A stretch of DNA of 58,113 nt from positions 1 through 58,113 of IMG/VR virus record IMGVR_UViG_3300035529_000070. One strand, 5' to 3'. This document shows, one piece after another, positions 4,457 to 33,926 of this stretch. A program made the translations under genes and the position numbers. Within the stretch, counting starts at the first letter, position 1; each line of letters begins with the position of its first letter. The DNA is from a virus. Under the pieces are notes generated by a model. It saw only the letters and a list, made by a program, of their open reading frames with translations. It searched no databases and was not told the origin of the DNA.

Positions 4457-4580
4457 AAAAGGGAGAGCGAAAGCTCTCTTTCTTTTTTTTACCTATATAA
4501 ACTAACATATAATAAAATGAAAAAAATCAAAAAATGTTGGTATATATAATATGTAAGGATTAGAAGATATTCTAGTCCAC

Positions 4581-4613
4581 CCTCGTAAGACCAGACCGCA
4601 AGGCTGGCAGAGG
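4581..4613 (+). promoter_or_regulatory. structured 5' leader motif, copy 2
   Basis: cctc-gtaaga-ccagacc(gcaa)ggctgg-ca-gagg, then aaaggag. Confidence 0.6.
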
Positions 4614-4627
4614 AAAGGAGATTTAAT

Positions 4628-4951
4628 ATGAATATAATAAATTGCACACCCCACCCATTAAATATTAAAAAAGGATCAGAAACAATAACCATCCAACCCT
4701 CTGGGATTATTCCCAGAGTAAAAACAGAAACAAAAACCGTTGAAGGACTTAACGGTTTTGAAGTTAAAGAATCAAGATCCACAGGTGTAGAAGGTTTACC
4801 TGCACCTGAAAAAGATACCATCTACGTAGTATCAGCAATGGTAGCACAAGCTACCGATAGAAACGATGTAGTATCCCCAAACACTGGGGAAGCTCTTCGA
4901 AATGAAAAAGGGCACATTGTGGCTGTGCCCGGATTCGTTAAGTACGTTTAA
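4628..4951 (+). CDS. conserved hypothetical phage protein (N-x-TPH...GLP family)
   Basis: IINCTPHPL, PSGIIPRV and GLPAPEKDTIYVVS motifs. Confidence 0.75.
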   Translation: MNIINCTPHPLNIKKGSETITIQPSGIIPRVKTETKTVEGLNGFEVKESRSTGVEGLPAPEKDTIYVVSAMVAQATDRNDVVSPNTGEALRNEKGHIVAVPGFVKYV

Positions 4952-4955
4952 GCCA

Positions 4956-5021
4956 CTGTCGAAACGAGGGTTCTGCCCTCGTCTGGTAGGGATGACCTCC
5001 TGCCACTGATGAGACAGGTCA
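4956..5021 (+). ncRNA. type II hammerhead ribozyme
   Basis: Stem II ctgtc/gacag; GAAA; stem III cgaggg/ccctcg; GUC cleavage triplet 4981-4983; stem I tggtagg/cctgcca; CUGAUGA core 5006-5012; loop I tgacc can pair with 3' ggtca. Confidence 0.93.
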
Positions 5022-5091
5022 GTAACAAAGGCTACGTGTCGGAAGCCTATAATTCTGACAAATCAATAATACCCGAAGGAGGGATTATTAT

Positions 5092-5391
5092 ATGACATTG
5101 AAAGATAAGGTAGATTCCATCAAATCATGGATGAAAAAGGAATATGAATTAAAAGTAGAAAGTATCCCAAAATCGTCTTTTGACGATTTTGAGGAAGAAT
5201 TAAAAGAAATTTTATTTCCGCATTTAATTGCGGAAGATGCAAAAAAGAAAAAAGCTCAAGAAATACTTGAGCTAGAAAGAATCAAAGACAAAATAGGCCG
5301 TTATGGCCTAGAAGAATTAAATGATTTTAACATTTTGTCATGGGCTGAAGAAATAGCCTTGGCAAATTTAAAGAAAATTTCAAGAGGCTGA
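5092..5391 (+). CDS. hypothetical protein
   Basis: aaggagg RBS; terminator follows. Confidence 0.75.
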   Translation: MTLKDKVDSIKSWMKKEYELKVESIPKSSFDDFEEELKEILFPHLIAEDAKKKKAQEILELERIKDKIGRYGLEELNDFNILSWAEEIALANLKKISRG

Positions 5392-5483
5392 ACACGCACC
5401 TCTTTTTTTACCTATACAGAAAATAAAAAATGAAAATTCTTGGTATATATAATATGTAAGGATTAGAAAATATTCTAATCTGC

Positions 5484-5516
5484 CCTCGTAAGACCAGACC
5501 GCAAGGCTGGCTGAGG
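5484..5516 (+). promoter_or_regulatory. structured 5' leader motif, copy 3
   Basis: cctc-gtaaga-ccagacc(gcaa)ggctgg-ct-gagg, then aaaggag; about 90 bp upstream of the start nearly identical to 4538-4627. Confidence 0.6.
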
Positions 5517-5530
5517 AAAGGAGTTTTAAT

Positions 5531-5935
5531 ATGAAATTAGTTAATTTTATGGAAATAATTGAAGGAGATTTTGATGAAAACTATGAAACAAGAGAAAAAG
5601 ACCAAAGAATTTGGGGTTCGAAAGGAAATTTCACATTTTTAAGAAATGATAGAGCAGACCAATATGAAATGTATTCAAAAGAACAAGCTGAAGAAATTAG
5701 GAGATTTATTGAGGATTATTACGAAAGATTTATGGTTGATCCAGAACAAGCATATGAAGACCAAGAACTTCATTATAATTTGGTTGGTTATAAAGAATAT
5801 AGAAACGGAGATGAAGAAGTAAAAAGAATTTCAATAGTTCCTACTGACGATGAAGATGAAAAAGATTTAAATCGTTATATAGAAAATTTTTTAAAAACCA
5901 ATGGCAGAGGAATATGTATAGAGTATATCAGATAA
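5531..5935 (+). CDS. hypothetical protein
   Basis: aaaggag RBS. Confidence 0.75.
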   Translation: MKLVNFMEIIEGDFDENYETREKDQRIWGSKGNFTFLRNDRADQYEMYSKEQAEEIRRFIEDYYERFMVDPEQAYEDQELHYNLVGYKEYRNGDEEVKRISIVPTDDEDEKDLNRYIENFLKTNGRGICIEYIR

Positions 5936-6062
5936 TCTTTTACTCAGCCCGATTTGTCGGGTGAAGAATAAAGACGGCGCACCACGCGCCTCTTTTTTTA
6001 CCTATACAAACACATGATCTTGTTGTATAATATAGAAGAATACTATATAAGGAGATGTTTAT

Positions 6063-6242
6063 ATGCCAACTTACAACTTTAAATGTGTTAACTGTGGACA
6101 TGTATCTAAAGTAAGTATGACTATAGAGGAATATGATAAACAAAAAACAGTTATATGTGGAAGATGTGGCGATGTTATGGAAAGACTTTATGGAAAGATG
6201 GATTTTGTATTACGTGGTGGTGGTTTTTACTCTAAAAAATAG
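6063..6242 (+). CDS. FmdB-family zinc-ribbon protein
   Basis: Hand-translated MPTYNFKCVNCGH...CGRCG...FVLRGGGFY; aaggag RBS. Confidence 0.85.
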   Translation: MPTYNFKCVNCGHVSKVSMTIEEYDKQKTVICGRCGDVMERLYGKMDFVLRGGGFYSKK

Positions 6243-6247
6243 AAAAT

Positions 6248-6519
6248 GCAGGACAATAGCCCTGCGTATATAAAATATATCGGCGTCTCGCATATAATAA
6301 TGACAAAATTATTATAACATACAGATAAAGAAAAAGCAAGACCCTAAGGTCTTGCGAGCAAAAGGAAATTTTAAAAAAATTTCACTATGGATTATTTTTA
6401 TTATAACATATAGATAAAGAAAAAGCAAGACCCTTAGGTCTTGCCAGCTATTTTACTAATATTTAGTAAAGGTAGTATTATTATATACAAATTATATCAT
6501 TTATCTTCATAATTGTCAA
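6248..6519 (-). ncRNA. three tandem promoter / ~45-nt unique segment / terminator units (candidate sRNA array)
   Basis: TTGACA-17-TATAAT and two TTGCTT-17-TATAAT promoters, each followed by a terminator hairpin; 45-bp direct repeat at 6311-6355 and 6400-6444. Confidence 0.6.
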
Positions 6520-7318
6520 AAATTTCTGCATAAGGGATTATATTCTTATAATCTTTCACAACCCTACTATCTTCTATCACTCTCCTGAATTTCTGTACAG
6601 TTTTTTCTAATCGTTCAACAGAACCTTTTGCTGTGAATATTATTCCCTGCATTTGACGAGAAGTATCTACATGTTTGTCATCCTGCACGGAAAACTCGGC
6701 ATAATTCAAGAACTGTATTACCTTATACAAATCAGTTTCTAATTCCTCGAGAACACCGTATCTGGAGTTGTATATATCCACAATGATGTTGTATTCGCCG
6801 TTAGGAAAATAAGGTTTTAGTTGATTTATATAATCATTAGCTACCAGGATATACCTCTTGTTATCCCTCACATATGTGAACTCCAAACTACTATCCAAAT
6901 AATCGACCATGATATCGTCTGTTAATATTCCGTTATCCATCCTGTCGGCTAAATACTTAATCATATCTTCGTTAAAATACCTTTTCTGATGAGTGGCTTT
7001 GCCGTTTATTTGTATATCGTATACCGTTTCTAGATAATCCCATGCGGAATATTTAGCCTGATTCTCATCGATGGAATCGTTGATCATGGAAACGCCTGAA
7101 TTCATAAAGTCAGCTATTGCAGCCCACATCAAGTTGGATGATTTCTTGTTTTGCTCGAAAGACTTGTAGATGTGGTTGTTCAGAAAGTGTTTTACACCTT
7201 TTTCTTTCTTCTCGAAATACAAGATGTTTCCCACTATCTTCACCAACAATTCAAACCTCACATCAACCGGTAATATACCTTCTTCAGGCAAAACACTTAA
7301 ACTGTCTTTGTAATACAT
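6497..7318 (-). CDS. hypothetical protein (273 aa)
   Basis: gaaagga RBS; long ORF. Confidence 0.8.
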   Translation of the reverse strand: MYYKDSLSVLPEEGILPVDVRFELLVKIVGNILYFEKKEKGVKHFLNNHIYKSFEQNKKSSNLMWAAIADFMNSGVSMINDSIDENQAKYSAWDYLETVYDIQINGKATHQKRYFNEDMIKYLADRMDNGILTDDIMVDYLDSSLEFTYVRDNKRYILVANDYINQLKPYFPNGEYNIIVDIYNSRYGVLEELETDLYKVIQFLNYAEFSVQDDKHVDTSRQMQGIIFTAKGSVERLEKTVQKFRRVIEDSRVVKDYKNIIPYAEIFDNYEDK

Positions 7319-7335
7319 AATTTCACATCCTTTCA

Positions 7336-7358
7336 GAGTTTTTGGTTTACTCCAAACC
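7336..7358 (-). promoter_or_regulatory. H-type pseudoknot immediately 5' of the SD
   Basis: Sense GGTTT-G-GAGT-AAACC-AAAA-ACTC; second covarying copy at 21830-21856. Confidence 0.55.
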
Positions 7359-7480
7359 TTTTATATTAACTGCAAAGCAGTTTTTAGAAAGAATATCTTA
7401 TACAAATTATACCATATGAAAAGGCAAAAGAAAAGGGCAGGTTCCCCTGCCTTGGTAAAAAACATATATATCAAGTGATT

Positions 7481-7768
7481 TTATTGTAGACTTTTTTTTA
7501 TTTCCATAGATGTTATTTTGCCGTCTGTTTTTTGGATAATAAGAAGAATGTCTATTGAATCTGTAAAAACTATTATCCCTTCAGCTTGTTTTAACTTCTT
7601 GTCTTCAGTAATTCCTCTTTTATCAAATTCTTTGCTAACATTTCCCTCCGGAATACCAAGATCCTTTGTTAAAGCAGATAACATTTCATCAGTTGTTGTT
7701 CCAATATAATTTTTACAAATATTAGTAACTGAATCCAACAACCTTTCGTTTTCCTTAGTGATAGCCAT
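7481..7768 (-). CDS. hypothetical protein, paralog of 7801-8208
   Basis: ggaggg RBS; shares KRGITEDKKxKQAEGI and QKTxGKITSMEI. Confidence 0.8.
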   Translation of the reverse strand: MAITKENERLLDSVTNICKNYIGTTTDEMLSALTKDLGIPEGNVSKEFDKRGITEDKKLKQAEGIIVFTDSIDILLIIQKTDGKITSMEIKKSLQ

Positions 7769-7800
7769 TAAATTCCCCTCCTGTTGTCTGAGTGATTTTG

Positions 7801-8208
7801 TTATGAACACGTTTCTATTTCCATAGACGTTATTTTGCCGTTTGTTTTTTGAACGATAAGGAAAATGCTTTTTGGTTGAGTAAGAACCAATATTCCCTCA
7901 GCTTGTTTAATTTTTTTGTCTTCAGTAATTCCTCTTTTTTCACTTTCTTTGCTGATGTCATTGGCAGAGATATGAAATTCCTTTTGTAAAGCAGATAACA
8001 TCTCTTCAAGCGTTGTTCCGATATAATCTTTACAAAAATTAGTCACCTCATCCAACATTTCTTTTTCTTGTTCAGTAATGTACTTAACCATTGAACATTC
8101 CTCCTTTAAATTTGTGTTCTGTTGAATTATATCTAAATCTATTCTGATCCCCACTACCAAAACAATTATAAAAATAGAAAACAATATTACCCCGAGATAA
8201 ACCATCAT
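7801..8208 (-). CDS. hypothetical protein, paralog of 7481-7768; optional N-terminal TM extension (internal start 8091)
   Basis: TAATG coupling at 8208 and an aggagg RBS before ATG 8091. Confidence 0.7.
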   Translation of the reverse strand: MMVYLGVILFSIFIIVLVVGIRIDLDIIQQNTNLKEECSMVKYITEQEKEMLDEVTNFCKDYIGTTLEEMLSALQKEFHISANDISKESEKRGITEDKKIKQAEGILVLTQPKSIFLIVQKTNGKITSMEIETCS

Positions 8209-21856: not shown

Positions 21857-22111
21857 AATTTAATAAAAAAAAGAGGGCAGGGGGATCCCCTACCCCAATA
21901 CTCTTATGGGAGATAAGACAGAAGTCTTATGTGTATTATATGATATTAGGAAAAACGGAGTTATTTATAGACCAACCCCCGAGTAATGTCTACCCGATTT
22001 TCCCCACAGTCGAGCACTATGCAACTATAATAAGTTGAGACATTAATCGTCTGGGTTTCTTGTTTTATTACATGGCAGTCAAAAACAAGAACTAAAAAAG
22101 ACTGCCGCTTT

Positions 22112-33358: not shown

Positions 33359-33490
33359 TTGACTTTTGCCTGTTCTGATGGTACAATTATTATGTAGTTG
33401 CATTTAGTCATCGGCGTACATCTTCTTTTTAATATCGAAGACATCCGCCACTCCAAGTCAAAGCAGGGGAATAAAGTCCCCTGTTTTTTT
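33359..33490 (+). ncRNA. candidate ~95-nt small RNA unit
   Basis: TTGACT-17-TACAAT with extended TG; no RBS or ORF; terminator cagggga/tcccctg plus T-run. Confidence 0.5.
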
Positions 33491-33491
33491 A

Positions 33492-33926
33492 TTATATAAT
33501 AATCATCTCTCTCAATTCATTCAAATCTGTTTCTAATAATTTATAAGATAAAGGAACTTCTTCTTTATTTTTCAATTCTGATCTCAATCTGCTTAACAAA
33601 ATGCCGCCCATAATTTTCATTTGTAGTGCCTTTTCTTCCAATTCAGCTTCTTCTTTTAAATTAATATGTTTTTTCATATTTATCTTATTATAATCTTTAT
33701 AGGCTTTTATAAAATCATCTAAAGCCATCACAGCTTCATCTATATATGTTTGAATATTAGCATTTTTCATCACTAGATTTCTTAAATTTTGATAAGAACT
33801 TTTTAAAATTTCTTCTCTTGTCATATCATCCAATCCTGATCTTTCCTTTTTATAAGCTGTAAACAAATCTATAAATAACAATATAAAAAAAAATACCAAC
33901 ATTATATTTAGAGTGACTATATCCAT
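33492..33926 (-). CDS. membrane-anchored helical protein
   Basis: gggaggg RBS; N-terminal TM helix. Confidence 0.7.
   Translation of the reverse strand: MDIVTLNIMLVFFFILLFIDLFTAYKKERSGLDDMTREEILKSSYQNLRNLVMKNANIQTYIDEAVMALDDFIKAYKDYNKINMKKHINLKEEAELEEKALQMKIMGGILLSRLRSELKNKEEVPLSYKLLETDLNELREMIII

What the first reader, a model, noticed from the sequence alone, without database searches (positions are those of the whole stretch)
6248..6519. Array of three promoter / 45-nt insert / terminator units: a candidate phage small-RNA battery
Seen on the minus strand: P1 TTGACA(6519-6514)-17-TATAAT(6496-6491), P2 TTGCTT(6428-6423)-17-TATAAT(6405-6400) and P3 TTGCTT(6339-6334)-17-TATAAT(6316-6311). 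The -35 of P2 and P3 is built into the preceding terminator (gcaagacc-4-ggtcttgc-TTTTT), giving a 45-bp direct repeat and a period of about 90 bp. The unique inserts are 46, 44 and 45 nt with no RBS or ORF, and two contain an AU hairpin (tttactaa/ttagtaaa; gaaatttt/aaaatttc). The layout is repeat-spacer-like, but each spacer is its own transcription unit. Inference: three ~65-70-nt sRNAs acting as antisense regulators, CRISPR-repeat mimics (Racr-like) or antitoxin mimics, or else decoy promoters that titrate host RNAP.
Basis: partly seen in the sequence, partly recalled or inferred. Interest (0 to 1): 0.75.

Follow-up and report, generated by a model that had tools for sequence, protein, structure and literature searches.

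The report
Phage array of three small-RNA minigenes
Between two convergent genes, a large uncultured phage carries three back-to-back mini transcription units (promoter, about 45 unique protein-free bases, terminator) built from a repeated terminator-plus-promoter cassette; related phages keep the cassette but swap or drop the inserts, so these look like exchangeable small-RNA genes whose targets are unknown.

Summary
On the minus strand, 6519-6240 holds three promoter / 44-45-nt insert / intrinsic-terminator units. The second and third promoters are fused to the preceding terminator in a 51-nt direct repeat (94% identical, period 89).

The signals look real:
- TGnTATAAT is this phage's working promoter type (24 of 49 copies lie in the 6% non-coding DNA).
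- P1 keeps its -35, TG, -10 and 17-nt spacing in two diverged relatives, although the spacer and the end of the overlapping reading frame differ.
- The terminator stem changes only by G·U wobbles that pair on the minus strand alone.
- No insert has an ORF with a ribosome site.

Relatives carry one unit (L024) or a different first insert with no second unit (L018). Insert types are mutually unrelated.

The architecture best matches the PeSL terminator/promoter shuffling cassettes of T4-type phages, but here the cargo is non-coding.

I found no target: no excess complementarity to phage start regions, no Rfam match, no copies in bacterial or viral collections. The host is unknown. The antisense, CRISPR-mimic, antitoxin-mimic and decoy readings are therefore untested or unsupported.

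Earlier notes of this scan describe comparable small-RNA cassette arrays in other large phages.

The parts
6491..6519 (-). P1: TTGACA (6519-6514), 17 nt, TG-extended TATAAT (6496-6491). It is embedded in the last codons and the stop of the 273-aa ORF.
   Evidence: 12/12 with TG. The hexamers, TG and 17-nt spacing are conserved in L018 and L024 although the spacer and ORF end differ. It is absent from the distant homologue that lacks the array.
6419..6484 (-). Predicted RNA U1 (about 65 nt): AU-rich 5' tail, 8-bp AU hairpin (6470-6452), terminator T1. The ends are inferred from the promoter and terminator, not measured.
   Evidence: Fold: -19.4 kcal/mol, z -3.7. No ORF.
6424..6445 (-). Terminator T1 (9-bp stem, 4-nt loop, U-run). 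It also ends the 273-aa gene's transcript.
   Evidence: The stem is 100% paired in 4 copies, with wobble-only changes.
6398..6448 (-). Cassette copy A: terminator T1, T-run, CTTTATCT and the extended -10 of P2 (-35 6428-6423, -10 6405-6400).
   Evidence: 51-nt direct repeat, 94% identical. Related promoter sequences precede real genes at genome positions 150341 and 158301.
6331..6393 (-). Predicted RNA U2 (about 63 nt): 5' tail, 8-bp AU hairpin (6383-6365), terminator T2 (6355-6336). This unit is absent from relative L018.
   Evidence: Fold: -18.0 kcal/mol, z -4.0. Alignment with L018.
6309..6359 (-). Cassette copy B: terminator T2 plus promoter P3 (-35 6339-6334, -10 6316-6311).
   Evidence: The L018 cassette differs from it at 5 of 45 positions.
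6240..6304 (-). Predicted RNA U3 (about 65 nt), ending at terminator T3 (6265-6248). It is the only insert with a homologue in a relative (L018).
   Evidence: Fold z -2.4. Insert similarity to L018 z 8.5. A 30-nt block has no substitution, against 29% divergence at 4-fold sites of the neighbouring gene.
6497..7318 (-). Upstream 273-aa ORF of unknown function; its 3' end carries P1.
   Evidence: No Pfam or PHROG family. Only 4 close clusters and no remote homologues. AF2 model pLDDT 45.
6063..6242 (+). Convergent 59-aa zinc-ribbon (FmdB-like) gene. Its stop lies 6 nt from T3.
   Evidence: PF09723 E 7.7e-9; phrog_385.

Best explanation
The locus is a tandem array of three autonomous, protein-free transcription units read leftwards by the host's primary-sigma RNA polymerase. 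Each starts at a TG-extended -10 promoter. Each runs through about 38-40 unique bases (an AU-rich single-stranded 5' part; an 8-bp AU hairpin in U1 and U2). Each stops at a strong intrinsic terminator. The predicted products are RNAs of about 62-66 nt.

Units 2 and 3 are joined by a 51-nt composite cassette, in which the terminator's 3' arm and U-run supply the -35 and upstream region of the next promoter. This cassette works like the PeSL (promoter-early stem-loop) cassettes of T4-type phages: it insulates each module transcriptionally, and its near-identical copies offer homology for recombination. That explains why relatives have one, two or more units with unrelated inserts.

Shown here: the anatomy, the promoter class, conservation of the signals, variability of the inserts and absence of coding.

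Inferred: that discrete RNAs are made (my estimate about 0.75). Also inferred: that they are trans-acting small RNAs aimed at host or competitor targets rather than at the phage's own messages (about 0.35-0.4).
For: Anatomy.

Promoter class: TGnTATAAT occurs 49 times against 25 expected. Of these, 24 lie in the 5.9% of the genome outside long ORFs, mostly 20-60 nt ahead of a ribosome site.

P1 conservation: P1 keeps TTGAC(A/T), 17 nt, TG and TA(T/C)AAT in L018 and L024, while the spacer sequence and the position of the stop codon differ. The 48%-identical homologue in L008 has neither promoter nor array.

Terminator: the stem is 100% paired in 4 copies. Its two changes are A-U to G·U and C-G to U·G, which pair only in the minus-strand RNA.

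Non-coding: no ORF with a ribosome site.

Folds: hairpin plus terminator, z -3.7, -4.0 and -2.4.

Relatives:
- L018 has P1, an unrelated 57-nt insert, one cassette and a U3 homologue, with no U2.
- L024 has a single unit with another insert and the same terminator.
- Insert types are mutually unrelated apart from I3 with L018_I3.
- No relative has a gene in place of an insert.

Wider genome: similar terminator-promoter composites precede real genes, and at least six other ORF-less promoter-to-terminator units exist.

PeSL properties: PMC2839356, PMC4122927.
Against: There are no expression data.

Only three independent array variants exist. Two of them lie on contigs of 1.4-1.5 kb. L006 is the same lineage and not independent.

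No target was found. Duplex energies against 209 phage start regions are no better than dinucleotide shuffles. Longest exact matches in the genome are at the shuffle level.

The predicted U3 fold is not kept in L018.

The conservation of U3 could partly reflect overall relatedness: about 14% substitutions against 25-29% at silent sites, in a small sample.

Terminator T1 would be needed anyway to end the 273-aa gene's transcript. The TTGAC of the -35 also encodes a conserved (F/L)-D.
Confidence: 0.6

Rival explanations
1. By-product of cassette shuffling. The terminator-promoter cassette was duplicated or inserted by recombination. The short RNAs may be made but do nothing. If the array has any use, it is as a triple terminator or insulator between the convergent 273-aa and zinc-ribbon genes.
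For: Terminator-promoter composites are a general building block of this genome. Mosaic breakpoints between relatives fall at cassettes and terminators. No target was found. Insert content is not conserved across relatives.
Against: Recombination between flanking cassettes removes the whole unit, not all but 45 nt. Three inserts of 44-45 nt are not what random deletion leaves, and two carry perfect 8-bp hairpins (rough chance about 1% per insert). P1 points at nothing but the insert, yet it is conserved in three lineages. No relative shows a gene at these positions.
Confidence: 0.22
2. Cis-antisense or transcriptional-interference module. The zinc-ribbon gene (plus strand) lacks a good terminator of its own. 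Its read-through would therefore meet three head-on promoters, and the three RNAs are perfectly complementary to it. This would limit antisense transcription into the 273-aa gene or trigger processing of the zinc-ribbon message.
For: On the plus strand T3 has an A·C mismatch and no U-run. Only the T1 hairpin has a weak plus-strand tail. The array and the zinc-ribbon gene stay adjacent in the window type and in L024.
Against: In L024 a single hairpin with an A-tract before it and a partial T-tract after it seems to serve both directions, and P1 is still kept. This reading does not explain why the inserts differ between relatives. There are no expression data.
Confidence: 0.08
3. Anti-defence decoy RNAs. 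One or more inserts would mimic a host CRISPR repeat or guide scaffold (Racr, vsgRNA) or an RNA antitoxin (ToxI-like).
For: The layout resembles Racrs and viral sgRNAs: strong own promoter, short RNA, hairpin, terminator (PMC10651486; preprint 10.64898/2026.06.01.729453). Rapid insert turnover would fit an arms race.
Against: No Rfam family, CRISPR-DR and ToxI families included, matches even at E<=10. The U1 hairpin has no exact copy in 185,579 species' genomes. The U2 palindrome occurs only as single scattered chance hits, never in arrays, within the rows returned. The inserts are not tandem repeats, unlike ToxI. There are no acr-like neighbours.
Confidence: 0.06
4. A DNA-level element: a transcription-primed replication origin (promoter plus AT-rich unwinding segment), or palindromic operators for a DNA-binding protein, or promoters that merely titrate host RNA polymerase.
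For: The inserts are 69-80% A+T. The hairpins are perfect DNA palindromes, and strong promoters abut them.
Against: The stem substitutions are wobble pairs that are valid in RNA on one strand only, and the loop grows from 4 to 8 nt in L024. Both would break a DNA operator. GC skew follows gene orientation, with no switch at 6.3 kb. For titration, three promoters among about 25 alike are not special.
Confidence: 0.04

Closest known systems
PeSL (promoter-early stem-loop) cassettes of T4-type phages (Arbiol et al. 2010, PMC2839356; Comeau et al. 2014, PMC4122927)
   Same: A composite of a terminator stem-loop and a strong host-type early promoter, repeated at short range. It sits in a variable region of small single-gene transcription units. 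Differences between close relatives are insertions, deletions and replacements bounded by the cassettes.
   Different: PeSLs end in a Shine-Dalgarno and ATG and flank protein ORFans; here the cargo is 44-57 nt of non-coding sequence. The phage is unrelated (no T4-type genes seen). The promoters are of the TG-extended -10 kind. The stem is GCAAGACC/GGTCTTGC rather than polyG/polyC. Mini-circles were not tested.
Phage-encoded small RNAs found by transcript-end mapping in large phages (e.g. 11 sRNAs in phage 201phi2-1, PMC11512511)
   Same: Short units with a start site immediately followed by a terminator, some of them intergenic, in a large phage. Their function is unknown.
   Different: Those are mostly 5'UTR-derived and single, and they were detected experimentally. 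This is a predicted tandem array with a shared cassette and insert turnover.
RNA anti-CRISPRs (Racr / solitary repeat units, PMC10651486) and viral single-guide RNAs (preprint 10.64898/2026.06.01.729453)
   Same: A short phage non-coding RNA with its own strong promoter, a hairpin and, for vsgRNA, a terminator at the end.
   Different: Their defining feature is similarity to a host CRISPR repeat or tracrRNA, and none was found here. The host is unknown.
3'UTR-derived small RNAs with a promoter inside the end of the upstream ORF (DapZ and MicL type in enterobacteria; from my own knowledge, not checked in a paper here)
   Same: U1 starts at a promoter embedded in the last codons of the 273-aa ORF and shares that gene's terminator.
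   Different: Those are bacterial, Hfq-dependent RNAs with mapped targets. Here this applies to U1 only, and nothing is known of partners.

Membership tests
PeSL cassettes (T4-type phages) | Composite of a stem-loop terminator and a host sigma-70-type early promoter, repeated in the genome | tested here: met
   51-nt repeat holding a terminator and an extended -10 promoter, in two copies. Looser relatives lie at genome positions 150341, 158301 and 7451.
PeSL cassettes (T4-type phages) | Cassette ends in a Shine-Dalgarno and ATG and flanks protein ORFans | tested here: not met
   No ribosome site or ORF lies in any insert. The modules are non-coding.
PeSL cassettes (T4-type phages) | Indels and replacements between close relatives are bounded by the cassettes | tested here: met
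   L018 lacks U2 exactly between the repeat copies, and its U1 insert is replaced between P1 and the terminator. L024 has one unit. Only 3 variants are available.
PeSL cassettes (T4-type phages) | Recombination between cassettes yields mini-circles; promoter and terminator activity shown in reporters | not testable with these tools
   Needs inverse PCR and reporter assays.
Independently transcribed bacterial or phage sRNA gene | Own promoter, no coding potential, intrinsic terminator, length 50-300 nt | tested here: met
   These are predictions from sequence only.
Independently transcribed bacterial or phage sRNA gene | Discrete transcript detected, and a target or partner | not testable with these tools
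   There are no RNA data. The phage-internal target search was negative.
Racr / solitary CRISPR repeat unit | Sequence and structure similarity to a CRISPR repeat, ideally of the host's subtype | tested here: inconclusive
   No Rfam CRISPR-DR match at E<=10. No arrays of the U1 or U2 hairpin in bacterial genomes. The SRUFinder repeat set and the host genome were not available.
CRISPR array | Three or more near-identical 25-40-nt repeats with 25-40-nt spacers, one leader promoter, processing of a long precursor | tested here: not met
   There are two 51-nt repeats. Each carries a terminator and a promoter, so every 'spacer' is a separate unit.
Type III antitoxin RNA (ToxI-like) or its phage mimic | Tandem direct repeats of the antitoxin RNA itself (about 36 nt), usually ahead of a toxin gene | tested here: not met
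   The inserts are mutually unrelated. There is no Rfam match and no toxin-like neighbour.

The most novel reading that the evidence does not exclude
The terminator-promoter cassette is the linker of an exchangeable cartridge system for non-coding RNAs. Phages of this group would swap ready-to-express 45-60-nt RNA modules at one locus, much as T4-type phages swap ORFan cassettes. The cartridges would be fast-evolving effectors (guides, decoys or antisense RNAs) aimed at host defences or rival phages. Together with comparable arrays noted by this scan in other large phages, this would point to an unrecognised class of phage small-RNA arsenals.
Probability: 0.2. Interest if true: 0.8.

Novelty: new variant of a known kind. 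Interest (0 to 1): 0.5.

Why it matters
Small RNAs of virulent and large phages are barely charted. The few with known roles (RNA anti-CRISPRs, viral guide RNAs, antitoxin mimics) turned out to be counter-defence tools.

A locus where the expression signals are conserved while the short non-coding cargo is replaced between close relatives is a compact, directly testable candidate for such RNAs. It would extend the PeSL idea of modular shuffling from protein ORFans to RNA genes.

It also offers three strong, insulated promoter-terminator parts for low-GC hosts.

If the RNAs prove inert, the locus still documents cassette-mediated recombination outside the T4-type phages.

Tried and rejected
Searches for the array or its parts elsewhere:
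- Rfam at E<=10 on 5000-8000 gave only chance-level hits.
- Rfam on the whole window at gathering score gave only tmRNA, tRNA-Ser and a type II hammerhead.
- blastn of 5500-7500 against 50,697 phage records: no match.
- IMG/VR scans for the cassette, the promoter part and inserts 1, 2 and 3: no hits.
- The metagenome scan for the terminator-promoter junction gave 5 hits, all chance matches inside coding regions.
- Genome-collection scans: the U1 hairpin gave 0 hits.

Target and origin tests:
- Antisense target test against 209 phage start regions: best energies equal to or worse than shuffles.
- Longest exact matches within the genome: at the shuffle level.
- Origin-of-replication idea: GC skew only mirrors gene orientation.

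Link to the upstream 273-aa protein (for example an RNA-guided enzyme with its RNA at the gene's 3' end):
- No family.
- No remote homologue among 1.8 billion representatives.
- AF2 model unusable at pLDDT 45.
- Atlas look-alikes all below TM 0.5.
- The distant homologue lacks the array.

Other:
- The search for related loci with that protein in IMG/VR found nothing.
- Relatives cannot be drawn for a virus record.
- L006 at first looked like an independent relative with an identical array. It is the same lineage with a divergent patch inside the 273-aa gene.
- The host was not identified, so no host-target or host-CRISPR comparison was possible.

Full report
CONTEXT. The window is the first 58 kb of a 183,532-bp IMG/VR virus record (linear, CheckV 82% complete, 30% G+C). 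The region around the finding is a patchwork of very small transcription units on alternating strands. Almost all encode proteins with no family. The window also holds a tmRNA, a tRNA-Ser and a type II hammerhead.

OBSERVATION. Reading the minus strand confirms every element at the stated coordinates.
- P1 is a perfect TTGACA, 17 nt, TATAAT with an upstream TG (12/12). The TG is the first two bases of the TGA stop of the 273-aa ORF 6497-7318.
- Terminators lie at 6445-6424, 6355-6336 and 6265-6248. The 2-kb region has 8 terminator-like sites against 0.8 in shuffles.
- P2 and P3 use TTGCTT, formed by the terminator's 3' arm and U-run, plus a TG-extended perfect -10.
- The terminator-plus-promoter block is a 51-nt direct repeat, 94% identical, with period 89.
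- The inserts are 45, 44 and 45 nt.
- No ORF with a ribosome site exists on either strand.

ARE THE SIGNALS REAL? There are three lines of evidence.
- Promoter class: TGnTATAAT occurs 49 times in the genome against 25 expected from a first-order Markov model. Of these, 24 fall in the 5.9% of the genome outside long ORFs, mostly 20-60 nt ahead of a Shine-Dalgarno and start codon. The three array promoters therefore belong to the phage's working promoter class. Close copies of the P2/P3 sequence precede real genes at genome positions 150341 and 158301.
- P1 conservation: in two diverged relatives P1 keeps TTGAC(A/T), exactly 17 nt, TG and TA(T/C)AAT. In L024 the spacer sequence is entirely different and the ORF stops earlier. 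The 48%-identical homologue in another phage group has neither promoter nor array and is translationally coupled to the next gene.
- Terminator stem: the four available copies of the GCAAGACC/GGTCTTGC stem are 100% paired. Their only two stem changes are A-U to G·U and C-G to U·G, which pair in the minus-strand RNA but would be mismatches on the other strand. In L024 the loop grows from 4 to 8 nt.

The hairpin is thus selected as an RNA structure of the leftward transcripts, not as a DNA operator. The predicted RNAs fold as a single-stranded 5' tail, a hairpin and a terminator. Against dinucleotide shuffles the z-scores are -3.7, -4.0 and -2.4, much of which comes from the terminators.

RELATIVES. 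Protein look-ups gave the only usable relatives.
- Several assemblies of the same phage give the identical 254-nt spacer.
- L006 is the same lineage, with a divergent patch inside the 273-aa gene. It is not independent.
- L018 (flanking gene 89% identical in protein, 12% nucleotide divergence) has P1, an unrelated 57-nt insert with its own hairpin and one cassette. Next comes a homologue of U3, and beyond it a further hairpin-plus-terminator followed by the start of another cassette-like tail. It has no U2.
- L024, which is more distant, has one unit: P1, a 48-nt insert and the same terminator, abutting the zinc-ribbon gene.
- Pairwise, the five insert types are unrelated, except I3 with its L018 counterpart (z 8.5) and a weak I1/L024 signal (z 2.6).
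- No relative has a protein gene in place of an insert.
- The presence or absence of U2 is exactly what recombination between the two 51-nt copies would produce.
- The L006/window synteny break lies just past the hairpin of another terminator, at 5976-5990.
- For U3, substitutions run at about 14%, and a 30-nt block has none. This compares with 25% at third codon positions and 29% at 4-fold sites of the adjacent gene. That is a modest hint of constraint from a small sample. The predicted U3 fold is not kept in L018.

WHAT IT WORKS LIKE. The closest described system is the PeSL cassette of T4-type phages. PeSLs are composite stem-loop terminators plus strong sigma-70 early promoters, concentrated in hyperplastic regions. 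They flank ORFans and mediate their insertion, deletion and replacement by homologous recombination, while each module keeps its own promoter and terminator (PMC2839356, PMC4122927). The present cassette shares the composite nature, the repetition, the setting and the indel pattern. It fails the feature that PeSLs carry a ribosome site and flank protein genes. It also sits in an unrelated phage with promoters of the TG-extended -10 type. I therefore file it as working like a PeSL array with non-coding cargo, not as a member of that family.

Short promoter-to-terminator units without ORFs are not unique to this locus. At least six more occur singly in the genome: 19503-19427(-) and 33395-33493(+) in the window, and four near the far end. 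This makes small RNA genes a plausible general feature of the phage. Transcript-end mapping has found such units in other large phages (PMC11512511).

FUNCTION. I could not find a target.
- RNAduplex energies of the three inserts against 209 phage translation-start regions are no better than dinucleotide shuffles; 27, 34 and 14 of 40 shuffles do as well.
- The longest exact matches elsewhere in the genome are at the shuffle level.
- No Rfam family matches, including CRISPR direct-repeat and antitoxin families.
- Neither hairpin occurs as a repeated unit in 185,579 species' genomes.
- The host is unknown, so host targets and host CRISPR repeats cannot be examined.
- The upstream 273-aa protein gives no clue.

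My committed reading is that the three units make early, host-polymerase-dependent small RNAs. Their variable 5' parts would act in trans on host or competitor RNAs or proteins. The cassettes would provide both insulation and a means of exchange.

The main rival is that the RNAs are inert by-products of cassette duplication. Against it stand the uniform 44-45-nt inserts, two with perfect 8-bp hairpins. Conservation of P1, which points at nothing else, also argues against it, as does the absence of gene remnants in relatives. A cis-antisense or interference role toward the convergent zinc-ribbon gene is possible, because that gene lacks a good plus-strand terminator. DNA-level readings (origin, operator, polymerase sink) are disfavoured.

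EARLIER NOTES. This scan's earlier notes describe comparable arrays of small-RNA cassettes in other large phages (e1-5408080, e1-5596862). I did not test those. They suggest the pattern may be wider than this genome.

VERDICT. The interpretation as separate small non-coding transcription units is supported by sequence and comparative evidence. The specific functions proposed are not supported or not testable. It is a new variant of known kinds (PeSL-like shuffling cassettes; phage small-RNA genes). Interest is moderate, 0.5.

Noticed in passing
window 19503-19427(-), 33395-33493(+), about 21940-21874(-); genome 158384-158295(-), 176983-176916(-), 177795-177721(-), 183061-182977(-): Further single promoter-to-terminator units of 62-99 nt without an ORF, several with an internal hairpin. 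The one at 183061 has a perfect TTGACA / TG / TATAAT promoter. The one at 21940 has a weak promoter. I saw no shared sequence motif with U1-U3.
   Followed up: partly
window 7260-6561 versus L006: The middle of the 273-aa gene is only about 60-80% identical between two otherwise 98-100% identical phage lineages. This is a sharply bounded divergent patch inside one gene, a possible diversifying or recombined segment.
   Followed up: partly
whole genome, terminator tails: 15 of 69 predicted terminators are followed by a T-run interrupted by one C (TTTTCTTT). The rate is 8% in T-rich 15-mers generally. Several of these tails run straight into the next promoter.
   Followed up: partly
window 5976-5990: A bidirectional terminator hairpin marks the point where synteny between the window and L006 ends. 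Different genes follow it in the two phages.
   Followed up: partly
window 6369-6448 (contig ends of L004, L005, L007, L027, L152-L155): Many metagenome contigs from independent samples break inside or next to the array. The likely cause is the 51-nt repeat, but population heterogeneity in unit number is also possible.
   Followed up: no
L018 1309-1400: Beyond the U3 homologue, L018 has an 8-bp hairpin with a 16-nt loop and then another terminator followed by a cassette-like tail (CTTTTCTTTATAT) at the contig end. This suggests a longer array in that lineage.
   Followed up: no
window 4505-4643 versus 5410-5546; 7474-7753 versus 7791-8067: A 140-nt promoter-plus-leader block is repeated at 86% ahead of two different genes. 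Two adjacent small genes are 76% identical paralogues.
   Followed up: no
window 4957-5023(+): A type II hammerhead ribozyme scores above Rfam's gathering score (42.1 bits) in an intergenic region 70 nt ahead of the gene starting at 5092.
   Followed up: no
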